From IMG/VR virus record IMGVR_UViG_2698536454_000017: DNA of 38,733 bases. One strand, given 5' to 3'. Made by a program: the position numbers and the translations under genes. This DNA is from a virus (taxonomy: Duplodnaviria > Heunggongvirae > Uroviricota > Caudoviricetes). Each line of letters begins with the position of its first letter. The stretch's first letter is position 1. This document shows positions 1,829 through 5,446 of the stretch, one piece after another. The notes under the pieces are model-generated. The model made no database searches, was not told the origin of the DNA, and worked only from the letters and a program-made list of their open reading frames with translations.

Positions 1829-2213
1829 CTAGAAGGGAATTGAATCGTCGTATTCAGGATGATTTTGATGATTGCTACTTTGCTGCTGTTGGCTGTTTCC
1901 TGAAGTTGCAAATCCAATCTTTGCATTCAGTAATTCAAGAGTGATTGATTGACCATTTTGCCCCTGATAAACATCAACCCTGATGTTTTCTCCGGTAATT
2001 TCCACAATGCCACCTTCAACAAGAACACTACGGTAGTAATCCGCTTGCGCTCCCGGCTTGGCAAATACAACGGCGCTGTAGTTTGTCCATTCTTTCTTTT
2101 TTTGTCTGGCGATCGTAATACTGAACGCCAGCACGGATGTTGAATCCGATATTTTCCCCGGCCTGAAACTCTCTTGCGGGCTTGTTTAGTCTTACAGTAA
2201 TCGAATGTGCCAT
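1829..2213 (-). pseudogene. SSB-like (lambda Ea10-type) single-strand DNA-binding protein gene split by a +1 frameshift in a 7-nt homopolymer
   Basis: N-terminal frame (ATG 2213..2211, MAHSITVRLNKPAREFQAGENIGF...) and C-terminal frame (ORF 1829..2134 ending ...PEYDDSIPF, an SSB-type acidic tip) both read through the T7 run at 2097-2103; removing one base joins them into one ORF of about 127 aa. Confidence 0.5.
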
Positions 2214-2818
2214 TAAGCAGCCGCTCCTTCTAATTCGTCTCGTCTGGTGTTGTAAACGTCCTGTGCTTTGTGCTGCTCCGGTGTGCCTTCGAGCATCTTC
2301 CACGCTTTGGCGAACGCCTGTTTAAGCTCTTCTACGGTGTTTTTCTGCAATGCTGCGTCAGTGAATGCTTTTAGAACCTGTTCAGGTGTAGGTGATGGTT
2401 TTGATTGCTTTGCTGCTGCGTTCTGCTGATGTTTATGCTCGTCGGTATCTGCATCTTTCGCATCATCAATGCCGAACAAACCATTGAGGCAATACTTGCG
2501 TGCATAAGAGCTTGTAGCTCCCGTAACTTGTGCAGAATCCATTCCTTTCTTGCTTTCTTCCTCTCGTGCAAGAGCGGTTGCCGTATGGCTGTTTTCGCCA
2601 TCGGTAATAGTTGCCGTGGCTTTCACGTAATACCGATCACCAATCAGCACAACTTCATCGCTGATTGATAAAAACAGGCCATTCAGTAACGGCTTAACGC
2701 CTTCAAGAATGTCTTCGCAGCTTCTGTATTTATATTTGCCGAATGAGTTGTACTGATTCTTTGGCGCGTTCAGATTCTCCTGAATAGCTGCCAGTCTTGC
2801 GTAAAATTCTTTGCTCAT
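2213..2818 (-). CDS. erf: Erf-family single-strand annealing recombinase
   Basis: N-terminus MSKEFYARLAAIQENLNAPKNQYNSFGKYKYRSCEDILEGVKPLL matches recalled P22 Erf; first ATG at 2818 (track start 2848 is TTG). Confidence 0.8.
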   Translation of the reverse strand: MSKEFYARLAAIQENLNAPKNQYNSFGKYKYRSCEDILEGVKPLLNGLFLSISDEVVLIGDRYYVKATATITDGENSHTATALAREEESKKGMDSAQVTGATSSYARKYCLNGLFGIDDAKDADTDEHKHQQNAAAKQSKPSPTPEQVLKAFTDAALQKNTVEELKQAFAKAWKMLEGTPEQHKAQDVYNTRRDELEGAAA

Positions 2819-2899
2819 ATGATTGTTCTCAGAATGGACATGGCCCAAGGAAATAACGCTGATTTAATACTTCGACTCGGGACAAATTAAGGCATACCC

Positions 2900-4200
2900 G
2901 CATTCCTTCGCGGTCGCCATTATGGCGATACCAGAGAGCTTTCTGCGTGTACATGCGTCTCTGTAACTTGCTCTCCTTCACTGTGGTTGCAAGTGACATG
3001 CATATCTCCTTCGTTACCGATTAATTCTTTCATCTGACGAATGAATTCTTTGTCTGACCAGTTATCTTTGACATCCTCCACGCCCTAAAGGGCGTGGATT
3101 CCTCCTTCGAGACGGCGATGTCCCGCCGCGAGAATGTTCTTTGCCGCGTTTACGTCGCGGTCGTGGAGTTCACCACATTCCACGCAGATCCATTCTCTTA
3201 TTCCAAGGCCTACCCTACCCTTCGGACTACTGCAGCTAATAGCTCCGCAGCACGAGCAAGTCTGGGTGGTGTACGCTTCATCTACGACCTCAAAAACCAC
3301 ACTCCGCGCAATCGCTTTATACTGAATCTGATTTTTTAGCTGACACCAGCCGGCGTCGTAGATACTTTTTGCCAAATTTGTTTTTGATAACTTTTTACTG
3401 CTTACGTCGCCTACAAAAATAGCGGCGTATTTATTAACCAGCGCCGTAGAAAACTTATGGTGTGCATCTTTACGGCGATTTTTGATTTTTGCGTGGATAG
3501 CTCTAACACGTTTTTTATTATGGGCACGTTGAGCAATTTTTAATTTGCCTTCTAATTCACGATACCAACGTTTAGCAGGAAGTTTTTCACCATCCGAAGT
3601 GGTGGCAATGTCTTTCAGACCAAGATCGATACCCACGTCGGCAGTGCCTTTAGTTGGTTCGCATTCGTATTCAACTGCAACATTGAAATACCAGCGACCG
3701 CGCGCATCTTCTGCAAAGTTACCAGCACGGAATTTAAAGCCATTTAATCCATAGCTATCCCACACTTTGAAATAGTGCCCGGCAAACTTGATGCAGCCGT
3801 TTACCCATTTCACTTGAGCACCTTTGAACGGAACCCAACCAAGACTACGCCCAGCACCGCCACTTTTACGCCAGCGCAGCTTACTGCGTTTAAACTGTTT
3901 ACGCGCTTTAGCGTGATGTTTTGAGATTTCCTGACAAGTAGCTGCTTGTATGTGGTATCCGCGCTCCTTTTGAATACCAGCAATGCGTTTATCTACGTCA
4001 AATTCAGTTAACCAAACTCTTTGTTTTGGTCCGTATTCGCTGACAGTGCTGTATTCAGTCGCAGTCATTTCATTGATAAAGTTAAAAACTTGGTTCACTT
4101 CAAAGGCCATCTGACGCAACAAGGCGGCGTGGCGGTCTTTGACGCGTACCTGCAATGTTTTAGTCTGAATAGCCATTTACTTGCTCCCCTTATTGGTAAA
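2900..4200 (-). mobile_element. IS200/IS605-family insertion element carrying tnpB only (IS1341-like); ends approximate
   Basis: Intact tnpB with no Y1 HUH transposase nearby; perfect hairpin at tnpB stop; located in intergenic position upstream of erf; exact left and right ends not determinable without comparison. Confidence 0.5.
3085..4176 (-). CDS. tnpB: TnpB (IS605 OrfB-family RuvC-like RNA-guided endonuclease), 363 aa
   Basis: Motifs GIDLGLKDIATTSDGEKL (RuvC-I), TTQTCSCCG...CVECG zinc finger, HDRDVNAAKNIL (RuvC-III); GGGGAG SD 7 nt before ATG 4176. Confidence 0.85.
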   Translation of the reverse strand: MAIQTKTLQVRVKDRHAALLRQMAFEVNQVFNFINEMTATEYSTVSEYGPKQRVWLTEFDVDKRIAGIQKERGYHIQAATCQEISKHHAKARKQFKRSKLRWRKSGGAGRSLGWVPFKGAQVKWVNGCIKFAGHYFKVWDSYGLNGFKFRAGNFAEDARGRWYFNVAVEYECEPTKGTADVGIDLGLKDIATTSDGEKLPAKRWYRELEGKLKIAQRAHNKKRVRAIHAKIKNRRKDAHHKFSTALVNKYAAIFVGDVSSKKLSKTNLAKSIYDAGWCQLKNQIQYKAIARSVVFEVVDEAYTTQTCSCCGAISCSSPKGRVGLGIREWICVECGELHDRDVNAAKNILAAGHRRLEGGIHAL

Positions 4201-4202
4201 AC

Positions 4203-4373
4203 TCATGGACGGCCTTGTTGTTTCAAAATATCCCAAAGCTTTTCGAGCAAGCTTTTCATTCTTGGTTGTTTAAAGTCTGCTCCGGTTAAAATATTTTTTC
4301 GTGAATGCTGTACCGATAAAATCGGGTTGAAAGGGCGAACCGATGCCGCCCCTGCAATAGCGAACTGTTGCAT
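4203..4373 (-). CDS. small hypothetical protein (56 aa) immediately upstream of tnpB
   Basis: ATG 4373..4371 preceded by GAAGGAG SD; below ORF-track size cutoff as trimmed. Confidence 0.3.
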   Translation of the reverse strand: MQQFAIAGAASVRPFNPILSVQHSRKNILTGADFKQPRMKSLLEKLWDILKQQGRP

Positions 4374-4400: not shown

Positions 4401-4463
4401 ACGAAAACGCCTCGAGTGAAGCGTTATTGGTATGCATATAAAAAGGCCCTCACACTGGAGGGC
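4401..4463 (-). terminator. two tandem hairpins followed by T-runs on the minus strand (tL-like terminators)
   Basis: Minus-strand reading: AACGC-N10-GCGTT then TTTCGTT (4406-4425), and GCCCTC-N6-GAGGGC then CTTTTTAT (4446-4463 plus T-run at 4436-4445). Confidence 0.4.
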
Positions 4464-5173: not shown

Positions 5174-5446
5174 TTACCTCGCCGTCAGTTGTTTTGATTT
5201 CCGGTAGCCTGCCGCGTAAATGGCTACGTTTGGCAGGCAAATACTTCCACTGCATTCATCTGCCTTCTTGCAGCGAAGGCTTCCGAGTGATGCTGCTTTG
5301 TCTGCTCTGACGCAACCAGAGAGCTTTAGCGCAATTTTTCGCGCCAGTCGCTGTTCTTGCATTGCCTGTTCACGTTGAGCCTGTCTGCGTGCTCTGCGGC
5401 GATTTCTGGCGTTATCGTCAGCCAGATATGTAATGACTACTGTCAT
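5174..5446 (-). CDS. N: N-like transcription antitermination protein (90 aa)
   Basis: N-terminal arginine-rich motif DNARNRRRARRQAQREQ typical of lambdoid N proteins; GGAGGT SD; nutL upstream and nutR after cro. Confidence 0.7.
   Translation of the reverse strand: MTVVITYLADDNARNRRRARRQAQREQAMQEQRLARKIALKLSGCVRADKAASLGSLRCKKADECSGSICLPNVAIYAAGYRKSKQLTAR

What the first reader, a model, noticed from the sequence alone, without database searches (positions are those of the whole stretch)
2900..4200. Apparently intact tnpB-only IS200/IS605 element inserted in the early-left operon just upstream of erf
The 363-aa ORF has all three RuvC segments and the C-terminal zinc finger, so it looks catalytically intact, yet no Y1 (HUH) transposase is present within 1 kb. 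A perfect 8-bp hairpin (CCACGCCC-TAAA-GGGCGTGG, 3078-3097) overlaps the stop codon, where a TnpB guide-RNA (omegaRNA) scaffold would lie. The element sits between the PL-proximal genes and erf, so expression of the recombination genes may depend on read-through of the insertion.
Basis: partly seen in the sequence, partly recalled or inferred. Interest (0 to 1): 0.65.

Follow-up and report, generated by a model that had tools for sequence, protein, structure and literature searches.

The report
Transposase-less TnpB guide-RNA cassette in phage
A 1.1-kb remnant of an IS605-type jumping gene sits in the early operon of this P22-like phage with no transposase and no left end, only an RNA-guided nuclease gene and its guide RNA, and it is found almost unchanged at the same spot in many different lambdoid phages, which suggests it spreads by cutting element-free phage copies and being copied in during repair.

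Summary
A 1128-bp insertion lies at window 3068-4195 on the minus strand, defined base-for-base against empty sites in HK542 and many prophages. It carries one gene, a 363-aa TnpB. The hairpin over its stop codon is the terminal stem of a conserved, strongly covarying structure: the omegaRNA scaffold and right end.

Three corrections apply:
- The canonical RuvC-II glutamate is a glycine (G256). An invariant alternative glutamate (E300) replaces it, as in the published "rearranged" TnpB2 class.
- The element is not an intact IS. It starts 19 nt before the ATG, has no left-end hairpin, and the window has no tnpA. Its left edge falls inside the tnpA-tnpB spacer of an autonomous relative.
- It splits a small ORF at codon 4, directly after TTAC, and ends in TCAA.

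The same element (0-1 differences; 5 in one genome) occupies this one site in at least 15 loci. These have mosaic backbones, Erf or Rad52 neighbours, and flank alleles up to 14% apart. The 16 nt after the right end match 78 of 80 empty sites read.

Best reading, at 0.55 confidence: PL-transcribed TnpB-omegaRNA cuts empty alleles, and recombination copies the cassette in, without a transposase. This is inferred, not shown.

The parts
3068..4195 (-). The inserted element, 1128 bp. It is absent from empty sites and has no target-site duplication.
   Evidence: BLAST and base-level comparison with HK542 (L001) and the E2348/69 prophage (L003). The same junctions occur in 12 loci.
3085..4176 (-). 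tnpB coding sequence, 363 aa plus a TAG stop. Key residues: RuvC-I D184 (3625-3627), G256 at the canonical RuvC-II position (3409-3411), alternative E300 (3277-3279), RuvC-III D341 (3154-3156), and zinc-finger C307/C310/C331/C334.
4177..4195 (-). All that remains left of tnpB: the 19-nt leader CAATAAGGGGAGCAAGTAA with a Shine-Dalgarno-like AAGGGGAG. There is no left-end hairpin and no promoter of its own.
4196..4199 (-). TTAC in the phage flank, directly 5' of the element. This is the target/transposon-adjacent motif (TAM). LE-bearing relatives abut TGAC, TCAC or TTAC.
3068..3156 (-). Conserved structured 3' region, interpreted as omegaRNA scaffold plus right end. It has a long-range helix GACGU (3152-3156) with AUGUC (3070-3074), stem A (3112-3129), stem B (3102-3111) and a terminal hairpin. 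The scaffold may start further upstream.
   Evidence: 63-sequence alignment A2: 25 pairs, 97.3% paired, 13 pairs with compensatory changes, 0 of 500 shuffles as good, slid controls 44-52% paired. Sub-threshold Rfam hits to HgcC and sot0042.
3077..3098 (-). Terminal hairpin TCCACGCCC-TTTA-GGGCGTGGA, with the tnpB stop codon in the loop. It corresponds to the right-end subterminal hairpin and is followed by the 10-nt tail AGGATGTCAA.
3068..3071 (-). TCAA, the last four bases of the element (transposon-encoded motif at the right-end cleavage site).
   Evidence: (the GTCAA terminus is nearly invariant in 63 relatives)
3052..3067 (-). AGATAACTGGTCAGAC, the 16 nt of phage DNA directly 3' of the right end. 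If the omegaRNA reads through, this is its guide. It is identical to the sequence that follows TTAC in empty sites.
   Evidence: 78 of 80 empty sites match 16 of 16; no other TAM-plus-target in the window
2920..3081 (-). Body of the interrupted small ORF (PHROG 2123, HK542_031 homologue). It is in frame with a GTG at 3079-3081 inside the hairpin, 3 nt after the tnpB stop. Restart there is possible but untested.
4196..4206 (-). Orphaned start of that ORF (ATGAGTTTTAC: ATG, two full codons and the first two bases of codon 4). It overlaps the stop of the upstream PHROG 550 gene (4203-4373).
2213..2848 (-). erf (ERF-superfamily single-strand annealing recombinase), downstream in the same operon. 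In other carriers of the element a Rad52-type recombinase takes this place.

Best explanation
What it is (shown): the element is a 5'-truncated, non-autonomous descendant of an IS605-type insertion sequence. It keeps only a ribosome-binding site, an intact tnpB of the rearranged-RuvC ('TnpB2') type, the omegaRNA scaffold that overlaps the 3' end of tnpB, and the right end. It sits directly after a TTAC in a small ORF of the early-left operon.

How it most likely works (inferred):
- The element has no promoter of its own. It is transcribed from PL, with N antitermination, on infection or induction, alongside the phage recombination genes.
- TnpB processes the transcript into an omegaRNA whose guide is the 16 nt of phage DNA next to the right end.
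- The complex cuts any co-resident lambdoid genome, whether co-infecting phage or resident prophage, that has the uninterrupted TTAC-plus-target site.
- The element's own copy is spared, because there the target is preceded by TCAA rather than TTAC.
- The break is repaired by homologous recombination with the element-bearing genome as template, which copies the cassette into the empty site.
- The element would then persist and spread as an RNA-guided homing cassette, needing neither TnpA nor a left end.

Its origin is also inferred: a TnpA-mediated insertion at TTAC, followed by loss of the left end and tnpA. The loss may have started from the TnpA nick, or gone through AC/TAC microhomology with the spacer.
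For: - Ends: they are exact, there is no duplication, the flank is TTAC and the terminus is TCAA.
- Right end and omegaRNA: the structure covaries strongly across 63 relatives.
- Protein: D184, E300, D341 and the zinc finger are invariant. The E-to-G change with an alternative Glu 44 residues downstream fits the published rearranged class. One member of that class, TvTnpB with TAM NTGAC, and Fanzors cut DNA (PMC10691335; PMC10530073). The model has a full-length TnpB fold. dN/dS is 0.06-0.12 against phage-borne relatives.
- No route for a transposase: no left-end hairpin and no tnpA in the window. The autonomous relative is absent from 5,426 complete E. coli genomes.
- One site, many backbones: the same element occurs at the same junctions in the window plus 14 other loci: E. 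coli A2 (L002), L004-L013 and three IMG/VR contigs (L020-L022). Different cro, cI and N genes, ral or DUF2528 upstream, and Erf or Rad52 downstream.
- Homogeneity: the element shows 0-1 differences among the 11 loci compared base by base other than A2, which has 5. The flanks have 9-10 haplotypes, several identical to different empty-site haplotypes. Two right-flank allele classes differ at 30-34 of 230 positions, about 14%.
- Targets are plentiful: at least 120 IMG/VR contigs and 988 E. coli genomes carry the site or its flanks. Of 80 empty sites read, 78 match the guide 16 of 16.
- No other location: an exact 30-nt right-end search found only the three known IMG/VR copies.
- Recurrent tnpA loss: the closest relatives (82-91% identity) are all tnpA-less, co-oriented with phage genes and in unrelated phages, with left ends truncated to different degrees.
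- Precedent: TnpA-independent TnpB drive has been shown for plasmids (PMC11870625). A 2026 review lists it as theoretically possible for co-infecting phages (PMC13565253).
Against: - No cleavage, omegaRNA or conversion was observed here.
- Lambdoid phages recombine so freely that a single insertion could reach many backbones without any drive. The comparative data do not separate break-stimulated recombination from ordinary recombination.
- The element is rare: 1 of 988 site-bearing complete E. coli genomes, and 3 filled sites against at least 120 empty sites in IMG/VR. That is not what a very efficient drive would give, unless it is recent or costly.
- IS608 TnpB, which also has a TTAC motif, was inactive in an E. 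coli assay (PMC10055086).
- Activity of the rearranged class rests on one archaeal TnpB and on Fanzors.
- The E. coli A2 copy carries three amino-acid changes, one at an invariant Gly (G113C). Some copies may be decaying.
- The low dN/dS may reflect past selection while the lineage still lived in autonomous elements.
Confidence: 0.55

Rival explanations
1. Passive relic. An IS605-type element inserted once at TTAC, lost its left end and tnpA, and is now immobile cargo. It reaches different phages only through the ordinary mosaic recombination of lambdoid genomes and vertical descent. On this reading TnpB and the omegaRNA are not currently doing anything.
For: - Deletion derivatives of this family are common in phages.
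- The insertion lies in a short conserved block between mosaic junctions, where recombination would shuffle it anyway.
- The element is rare.
- The A2 copy has three non-synonymous changes, including one at an invariant Gly.
Against: - The ORF is intact in every copy read.
- All catalytic and zinc residues and the omegaRNA pairs are preserved.
- dN/dS is 0.06-0.08 between two independently truncated, tnpA-less lineages.
- An inert 1.1-kb insert that splits an ORF in a headful-packaged phage would be expected to be lost or to decay, not to appear unchanged on at least 9 flank haplotypes.
- tnpA loss with tnpB and right-end retention recurs in several phage lineages.
Confidence: 0.3
2. Phage weapon. 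The cassette is kept because it benefits its carrier. TnpB-omegaRNA destroys competing lambdoid phages, or breaks resident prophages, that carry the uninterrupted site. Copying of the element is a by-product.
For: - It shares the same anatomy as the best explanation.
- The target is present in about 18% of complete E. coli genomes and in many viral contigs.
- It is expressed from the early operon.
- Competitor killing by phage homing endonucleases is documented (review PMC13565253).
Against: - No direct evidence exists.
- Rarity argues against a strong advantage.
- This explanation cannot be separated from homing by sequence alone.
Confidence: 0.08
3. Ordinary IS1341-type non-autonomous IS that is still moved by a TnpA supplied in trans by an autonomous relative.
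For: - An autonomous relative (tnpA plus tnpB, 75% TnpB identity) with the same right end lives in E. coli lambdoid prophages at three or more sites.
- The element's TTAC flank and TCAA terminus are those a TnpA would use.
Against: - There is no left-end hairpin or guide motif. The left region folds no better than shuffles.
- The left edge lies inside the tnpA-tnpB spacer of relatives.
- The element is found at one site only.
- There is no tnpA in the window, and the autonomous relative is absent from 5,426 complete E. coli genomes.
Confidence: 0.04
4. Domesticated, nuclease-dead TnpB acting as an RNA-guided repressor (TldR-like) of a phage or host gene.
For: The canonical RuvC-II glutamate is missing. 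The element sits in a prophage, as the flagellin-linked TldRs do.
Against: - The loss is the compensated E-to-G plus alternative-Glu arrangement. E300, D184 and D341 are invariant.
- The guide region equals the element's own insertion site, not a promoter.
- No other match exists in the window.
Confidence: 0.02

Closest known systems
IS608 / IS605 group of the IS200/IS605 family (H. pylori IS608 is the model)
   Same: - It inserts 3' of TTAC without duplication (TTAC for IS608: PMC13565253).
- The right end has a subterminal hairpin, then 10 nt ending in TCAA, with GAAT 5' of the hairpin. These three IS608 right-end details are recalled from the IS608 literature and were not checked here.
- tnpB lies at the right end with an overlapping guide RNA.
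   Different: There is no tnpA, no left-end hairpin and no left-end guide motif. The TnpB is of the rearranged RuvC-II type, whereas IS608 TnpB belongs to the typical clade. The element occupies a single site.
Autonomous tnpA+tnpB element of E. coli lambdoid prophages (TnpB P0016; loci L029-L034; ISfinder name not determined)
   Same: TnpB is 75% identical. The right end is almost the same (GAAT-hairpin-AGGATGTCAA). The target motif is T-N-A-C. It is phage-borne and its tnpB is co-oriented with phage operons.
   Different: It has a divergent 135-aa Y1 TnpA, a full left end (16 nt plus a hairpin like that of the right end) and a spacer with a promoter-like TTGA..-17-TATAT. It is found at several different sites.
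ISDra2 TnpB-omegaRNA (OMEGA RNA-guided nuclease)
   Same: It has the same fold (8H1J, E 3e-16) and domain order. The omegaRNA overlaps the 3' end of the gene and the right end. The guide is the flanking DNA and the TAM is the insertion motif.
   Different: Sequence identity is about 20%. The RuvC-II Glu is replaced by Gly, with an alternative Glu 44 residues downstream. The motif is TTAC/TNAC rather than TTGAT.
Rearranged-catalytic-site TnpBs ('TnpB2'/RIIr clades; TvTnpB; Fanzors)
   Same: It shows the E-to-G substitution in RuvC-II and a conserved alternative Glu about 45 residues downstream. The TvTnpB TAM, NTGAC, resembles TNAC.
   Different: Clade membership was judged from motifs only, with no phylogeny. 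Activity of this bacterial or phage branch is untested.
TnpB gene drive of IS605 elements in multicopy plasmids (Mears et al. 2025) and 'transposon non-restorative homing' (2026 review)
   Same: Both propose TnpA-independent spread of an insertion through a population of homologous replicons, by cleavage of element-free copies.
   Different: The plasmid work used complete IS elements on plasmids in the laboratory. Here the evidence concerns a natural element that has lost the transposition machinery, sits in temperate phages, and is supported only by comparative genomics.
Free-standing and intron-borne homing endonuclease genes of phages (e.g. T4 Seg, Mob, I-TevI)
   Same: One conserved site, presence/absence polymorphism among related phages, an identical insert on diverged flanks, and expression during infection.
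   Different: Target recognition would be by a guide RNA that automatically records the insertion site, not by protein-DNA contacts. The element descends from a transposon.
Rfam HgcC (RF00062) and sot0042 (RF02656), archaeal RNAs at tnpB 3' ends
   Same: The best and only Rfam matches cover the terminal hairpin and tail (3056-3178, minus strand).
   Different: Scores are 26.9 and 17 bits against gathering thresholds of 50 and 88, so it is not a member. Rfam has no model for this clade's omegaRNA.

Membership tests
IS200/IS605 family insertion sequence (tnpB-only, IS1341-type) | Encodes a TnpB (OrfB_IS605 plus zinc-ribbon/TNB domains) | tested here: met
   Pfam PF01385 and PF07282. NCBIfam guided_TnpB, 209 bits.
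IS200/IS605 family insertion sequence (tnpB-only, IS1341-type) | Right end with a subterminal hairpin and a conserved cleavage motif at the terminus | tested here: met
   Hairpin at 3077-3098, followed by AGGATGTCAA ending at the empty-site boundary. The terminus is conserved in 63 relatives.
IS200/IS605 family insertion sequence (tnpB-only, IS1341-type) | Left end with a subterminal hairpin resembling that of the right end | tested here: not met
   Only 19 nt lie between the boundary and the ATG. The left 110-150 nt fold no better than shuffles (z +0.42 and -0.13). LE-bearing relatives have 16 nt plus CCCCGTCC..GGGCGGGG, which is absent here.
IS200/IS605 family insertion sequence (tnpB-only, IS1341-type) | Insertion 3' of a specific tetra- or pentanucleotide, with no inverted repeats and no target duplication | tested here: met
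   Empty site ...TTTTAC|AGATAAC... against filled ...TTTTAC|element|AGATAAC.... Relatives abut TGAC, TCAC or TTAC.
IS200/IS605 family insertion sequence (tnpB-only, IS1341-type) | A cognate Y1 (HUH) TnpA available in cis or in trans | tested here: not met
   There is none in the window. The autonomous relative is absent from 5,426 complete E. coli genomes, though it occurs in other assemblies.
TnpB/OMEGA RNA-guided nuclease | RuvC catalytic triad | tested here: met
   The canonical D-E-D is not present, since E278 of ISDra2 aligns with G256. The rearranged triad D184/E300/D341 is invariant and fits the published class. That E300 lies in the active site follows from those papers and was not measured here.
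TnpB/OMEGA RNA-guided nuclease | Structured omegaRNA overlapping the 3' end of tnpB and the right end | tested here: met
   Covariation analysis: 13 pairs with compensatory changes, 198 cells, 0 of 500 shuffles as good. The existence of the RNA itself was not tested.
TnpB/OMEGA RNA-guided nuclease | The guide equals the DNA flanking the right end, and the target in the element-free allele is preceded by the TAM | tested here: met
TnpB/OMEGA RNA-guided nuclease | RNA-guided, TAM-dependent DNA cleavage | not testable with these tools
   Needs a plasmid-interference or in vitro assay.
Homing (gene-drive) element | Presence/absence polymorphism at one homologous site across related genomes | tested here: met
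   15 filled loci with identical junctions. At least 120 empty sites in IMG/VR and 987 E. coli genomes matching only the flanks.
Homing (gene-drive) element | The insert is more uniform than its flanks, and sits on several pre-existing flank haplotypes | tested here: met
   The element shows 0-1 differences among the 11 non-A2 loci compared (A2 has 5). The flanks have 9-10 haplotypes, some identical to different empty alleles. This is also compatible with ordinary recombination.
Homing (gene-drive) element | Nuclease-dependent conversion of empty alleles | not testable with these tools
   Needs phage crosses with catalytic mutants.
TldR-type nuclease-dead TnpB regulators | Loss of catalytic residues without compensation, and a guide directed at a promoter | tested here: not met
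Rfam HgcC (RF00062) | Score at or above the gathering threshold | tested here: not met
   26.9 bits against 50

The most novel reading that the evidence does not exclude
This may be a naturally occurring RNA-guided gene drive of temperate phages. It is a TnpB-omegaRNA cassette that has shed both its transposase and its left end. It would propagate only by cutting the uninterrupted allele of one conserved early-operon site in co-resident lambdoid phages and prophages, and being copied in by recombination. It sits next to the phage recombinase genes and is co-expressed with them. Repeated, independent loss of tnpA in phage-borne relatives would then mark phages as a niche where TnpB alone suffices for spread.
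Probability: 0.45. Interest if true: 0.8.

Novelty: new variant of a known kind. Interest (0 to 1): 0.6.

Why it matters
TnpB is the ancestor of Cas12. What it does for its transposon is a recent and still narrow finding: retention after excision, and drive in plasmids. A cassette that can no longer transpose, yet appears unchanged at one site in many different phages, would be natural evidence that the nuclease and its guide RNA can sustain and spread an element on their own.

It would also place an RNA-guided homing system in the classic lambda/P22 early-left operon. That system is easy to test: crosses, induction in lysogens with empty-site prophages, and point mutants. The guide, the TAM (TTAC) and the target are all defined here.

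There are two practical points. Annotating this gene as a 'transposase' is misleading. And such cassettes may bias recombination and marker inheritance around the recombination genes of lambdoid phages.

Tried and rejected
- Left-end hairpin. I folded 110 and 150 nt from the left boundary and searched for inverted repeats. Nothing exceeded chance. A 14-nt imperfect inverted repeat joins 4112-4125 (inside tnpB) with 4212-4225 (phage flank). It was not pursued and is probably chance.
- tnpA elsewhere in the window. tblastn with the relative's TnpA gave nothing. A second right end or a TAM-plus-target match within 3 mismatches was also not found.
- Rfam. There were only two sub-threshold hits, and no curated omegaRNA family applies.
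- Other insertion sites of this element. An exact 30-nt right-end search found 0 in JGI metagenomes and only the 3 known IMG/VR contigs.
- The element in the INPHARED phage collection: none found.
- TAM logo from the 80 genome loci. The left-end motif search recovered only 5 usable left ends, two of them outside that set, so TNAC rests on 6 sites in total.
- Separating homing from ordinary recombination by flank haplotypes. The pattern fits both, so this was not decisive.
- Explaining the left junction. It is consistent with a TnpA nick at TTAC followed by a deletion, or with AC/TAC microhomology to the spacer (..TAGAC|CAAT or ..TGTAC|CAAT in relatives). This remains unresolved.
- TSS or RNA-intermediate idea for the left boundary. 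Rejected, because the boundary lies about 15 nt downstream of where the relatives' promoter-like site would start transcription.
- TldR-like regulator and 'conserved phage gene' readings. Both rejected.
Full report
**1. The observation**

The minus strand of 3085-4176 holds a 363-aa ORF.
- It matches Pfam OrfB_IS605 and Cas12f1-like_TNB and NCBIfam 'RNA-guided endonuclease TnpB family' (209 bits).
- An AlphaFold model (mean pLDDT 77.8) matches ISDra2 TnpB, ISFba1 TnpB, Cas12f and Fanzor2 over its whole length.

The right-end region folds far better than shuffled sequence (z -4.8). No Y1 transposase is encoded anywhere in the window. erf lies at 2213-2848 on the same strand. The window is a mosaic P22-like phage; its best match, E212, covers 60% of the query at 97% identity.

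**2. It is an insertion, and its ends are exact**

No phage in the INPHARED collection has the gene, but 92 phage records match the flanks. Of 5,426 complete E. coli genomes, 988 match the flanks and only one carries the insert: strain A2, 99.4% identical, at the same place.

Alignment with HK542 and the E2348/69 prophage gives the following, in tnpB sense:
- Empty site: ...CATGAGTTTTAC|AGATAACTG...
- Filled site: ...CATGAGTTTTAC|CAATAAGGGGAGCAAGTAA-ATG...GGGCGTGGAGGATGTCAA|AGATAACTG...

The element is therefore 3068-4195 (1128 bp), with no duplication. It abuts TTAC and ends in TCAA.

TTAC is the IS608 target (PMC13565253). The TCAA terminus, the 10-nt distance from the hairpin and the GAAT 5' of the hairpin match what I recall of the IS608 right end. 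That is my own knowledge and was not checked here.

The insertion falls in codon 4 of a small ORF annotated in HK542 (HK542_031; PHROG 2123). This is just after the overlapping stop of the upstream PHROG 550 gene. A GTG inside the hairpin, 3 nt after the tnpB stop, is in frame with the rest of that ORF. Whether it is used is unknown.

**3. The nuclease**

The alignment to ISDra2 TnpB places its RuvC-II Glu (E278) opposite G256. Across 19 family members down to 60% identity, several residues are invariant:
- G256
- D184 (GIDLG)
- E300 (V[D/N]E.Y[T/S]TQ.C)
- D341 (DRD.N)
- the four zinc-finger cysteines

This is the published 'rearranged' catalytic site: Glu to Gly, compensated by a Glu about 45 residues downstream. 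One archaeal TnpB of this type (TvTnpB, TAM NTGAC) and Fanzors are active nucleases (PMC10691335; PMC10530073).

**4. The guide RNA**

Rfam gives only sub-threshold hits, to HgcC (26.9 bits, E 0.002) and sot0042. Both are archaeal RNAs that, as I recall (not checked here), lie at tnpB 3' ends. The hits are centred on the hairpin.

I collected relatives from genomes and viral contigs and aligned the last 170 nt up to the right-end terminus for 63 of them. RNAalifold and an explicit pair count support four features:
- stem A, 3112-3129
- stem B, 3102-3111
- the terminal hairpin
- a long-range helix, GACGU (3152-3156, which contains the D341 codon) with AUGUC (3070-3074)

The counts are 97.3% of cells paired and 13 pairs with compensatory changes across 198 cells. 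No shuffle out of 500 reached these values, and slid controls paired in only 44-52% of cells. The tail AGGATGTCAA is nearly invariant.

By the logic of this family, the guide is the 16 nt after the right end, AGATAACTGGTCAGAC (3067-3052). The RNA itself was not observed.

**5. It is not a complete IS**

Only 19 nt, containing an RBS, precede the ATG. The left region has no hairpin (z +0.4 and -0.1).

A 75%-identical TnpB (P0016) belongs to a complete element in E. coli lambdoid prophages, which has:
- a divergent 135-aa Y1 TnpA (NCBIfam IS200/IS605 transposase)
- a left end T(N)AC|CGCTGAAGCCGCGAAG-CCCCGTCC..GGGCGGGG
- the same right end as the window element
- insertions at three or more different sites

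The window element's left edge corresponds to a point inside that element's tnpA-tnpB spacer (...ATATAGAC|C...).

The closer relatives (82-91% identity) are all tnpA-less, co-oriented with phage genes, and lie in unrelated phages. Their left ends are cut back to different degrees:
- L023 and L235 keep the left-end hairpin and an internally deleted tnpA.
- L014 and L236 keep only the spacer.
- L239 and the window keep little more than an RBS.

Left-end flanks in the family read TGAC, TCAC or TTAC.

The autonomous relative is absent from the 5,426 complete E. coli genomes. Mobilisation by TnpA is therefore unlikely on two counts: no left end, and no transposase at hand.

**6. Distribution**

TnpB cluster P0001 differs from the window protein by one residue (T40A). 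It is encoded on at least 22 contigs.
- All 10 contigs read, three IMG/VR contigs and E. coli A2 carry the element at the same junctions as the window.
- The backbones differ. Cro, cI and N types vary; ral, DUF2528, GP17 or Nmad5 lie upstream; Erf or Rad52/SSB lie downstream.
- Homology to the window ends 240-330 bp upstream and 240-1570 bp downstream.

The 1128 bp show 0-1 differences among the 11 non-A2 loci compared base by base, and 5 in A2. All variable positions are carried by a single locus. The adjacent 230 bp on either side show 9 and 10 haplotypes across all 15 loci.
- Several of these haplotypes are identical to different empty-site haplotypes.
- Two right-flank allele classes differ at 30-34 of 230 positions, about 14%, and both carry the same element.

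In 78 of the 80 read, the 16 nt after TTAC equal the guide. An exact right-end search found the element nowhere else.

**7. Mechanism**

These points are shown:
- the anatomy of the element
- the intact coding and structural features
- the identity between the guide and the empty-site target, which is preceded there by TTAC
- the single-site, many-backbone distribution
- co-orientation with the PL operon, with no terminator-like site on that strand inside the element and no promoter-like site ahead of tnpB

These steps are inferred:
- Transcription comes from PL on infection or induction.
- TnpB and the omegaRNA assemble.
- The complex cleaves element-free alleles in co-resident lambdoid DNA. 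The occupied allele is spared because TCAA replaces the TAM.
- Recombinational repair copies the cassette into the empty site.

This is the 'non-restorative homing' that a 2026 review lists as theoretical for co-infecting phages. It has been shown experimentally for plasmids (PMC11870625). My searches found no paper that describes it in lambdoid phages.

Purifying selection on tnpB between tnpA-less phage lineages (dN/dS 0.06-0.08) fits a maintained function.

**8. Why confidence is moderate**

- Ordinary recombination among lambdoid phages could place a single recent insertion on many backbones, and the haplotype data cannot exclude this.
- The element is rare.
- IS608 TnpB was inactive in one assay.
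- The A2 copy has three amino-acid changes, one at an invariant glycine.

I put active homing at about 0.55 and a passive relic at about 0.3. The remainder is split between a mainly competitive 'weapon' role, trans-mobilisation and a regulator role.

**9. Verdict**

The family is known (IS200/IS605, TnpB/OMEGA). The particular state is a new variant worth an experiment: no transposase, no left end, a rearranged nuclease, one site in many phages, and a guide that matches the empty allele.

Noticed in passing
L005 (GCA_013771725.1), directly after the right end; corresponds to window 3052-3067: One carrier lacks exactly the 16 nt AGATAACTGGTCAGAC next to the right end, so the right end is followed by GAAGAATTC... 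That is the whole presumed guide/target segment. This copy would be retargeted or disarmed, and its left flank is also the most divergent.
   Followed up: partly
L014 3917-5124; Salmonella phage LPSTLL (L242); empty sites in Bas80 (L241) and AB4P2 (L243): A 91%-identical tnpB-only relative sits just upstream of the endolysin genes of Segzyvirus-like phages. It lacks a left end but keeps the spacer with a promoter-like TTGACG-17-TATATG. It is flanked by a 10-bp direct repeat, AGAATTAATC, that is single-copy in empty sites. IS200/IS605 elements do not make target duplications, and no TNAC motif precedes the site. How it was inserted is unexplained.
   Followed up: partly
L029-L034 (E. coli assemblies and Logan contigs): A complete tnpA-plus-tnpB relative occupies at least three different sites in lambdoid prophages: after the dnaB-like gene, between N and cIII, and in another phage type. 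Its tnpB always has the same orientation as the phage operon. It is absent from the 5,426 complete E. coli genomes.
   Followed up: partly
L235, L236, L237, L239: The closest relatives (82-88% identity) lie in unrelated phages: contigs of about 140 kb with DNA polymerase A or T4-type RNA ligase, and a phiTE-like capsid region. All lack tnpA. L236's left boundary also seems to follow a TTAC (CTTAC|GTTAACCAC), but no empty site was available to confirm it.
   Followed up: partly
window 3152-3156 with 3070-3074: The long-range helix of the conserved RNA structure pairs the right-end tail with GACGU, which contains the codon of the catalytic Asp D341 (GAC, 3154-3156). The same bases therefore serve the DRDxN motif and the RNA fold.
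   Followed up: yes
window 2829-2999 and 2920-3081, minus strand: Two small ORFs overlap by 80 nt in different frames. Both give strong PHROG hits labelled 'recombinase' (PHROG 1723 and 2123). RefSeq annotation of related prophages calls neither. At most one is likely to be a real gene.
   Followed up: no
L002 (E. coli A2 prophage copy of the element): This copy differs from the others by four extra substitutions. Three change amino acids (A66V, G113C, V322A), and G113 is invariant in the family. This may be a decaying copy.
   Followed up: partly
window 4406-4425 and 4446-4463, minus strand: Two terminator-like hairpins with T-runs lie upstream of the PHROG 550 gene, between the N-proximal genes and the element. 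Transcription reaching tnpB presumably needs antitermination.
   Followed up: no
window 5174-5446, minus strand: A 90-aa ORF has an arginine-rich stretch (NARNRRRARRQAQREQ), typical of lambdoid N antiterminators. A promoter-like site at 6006-5978 (minus strand) is a candidate PL.
   Followed up: no
window 4112-4125 and 4212-4225: A 14-nt imperfect inverted repeat (86% complementary) links the 5' coding region of tnpB with the phage flank just upstream of the insertion. It may be chance.
   Followed up: no
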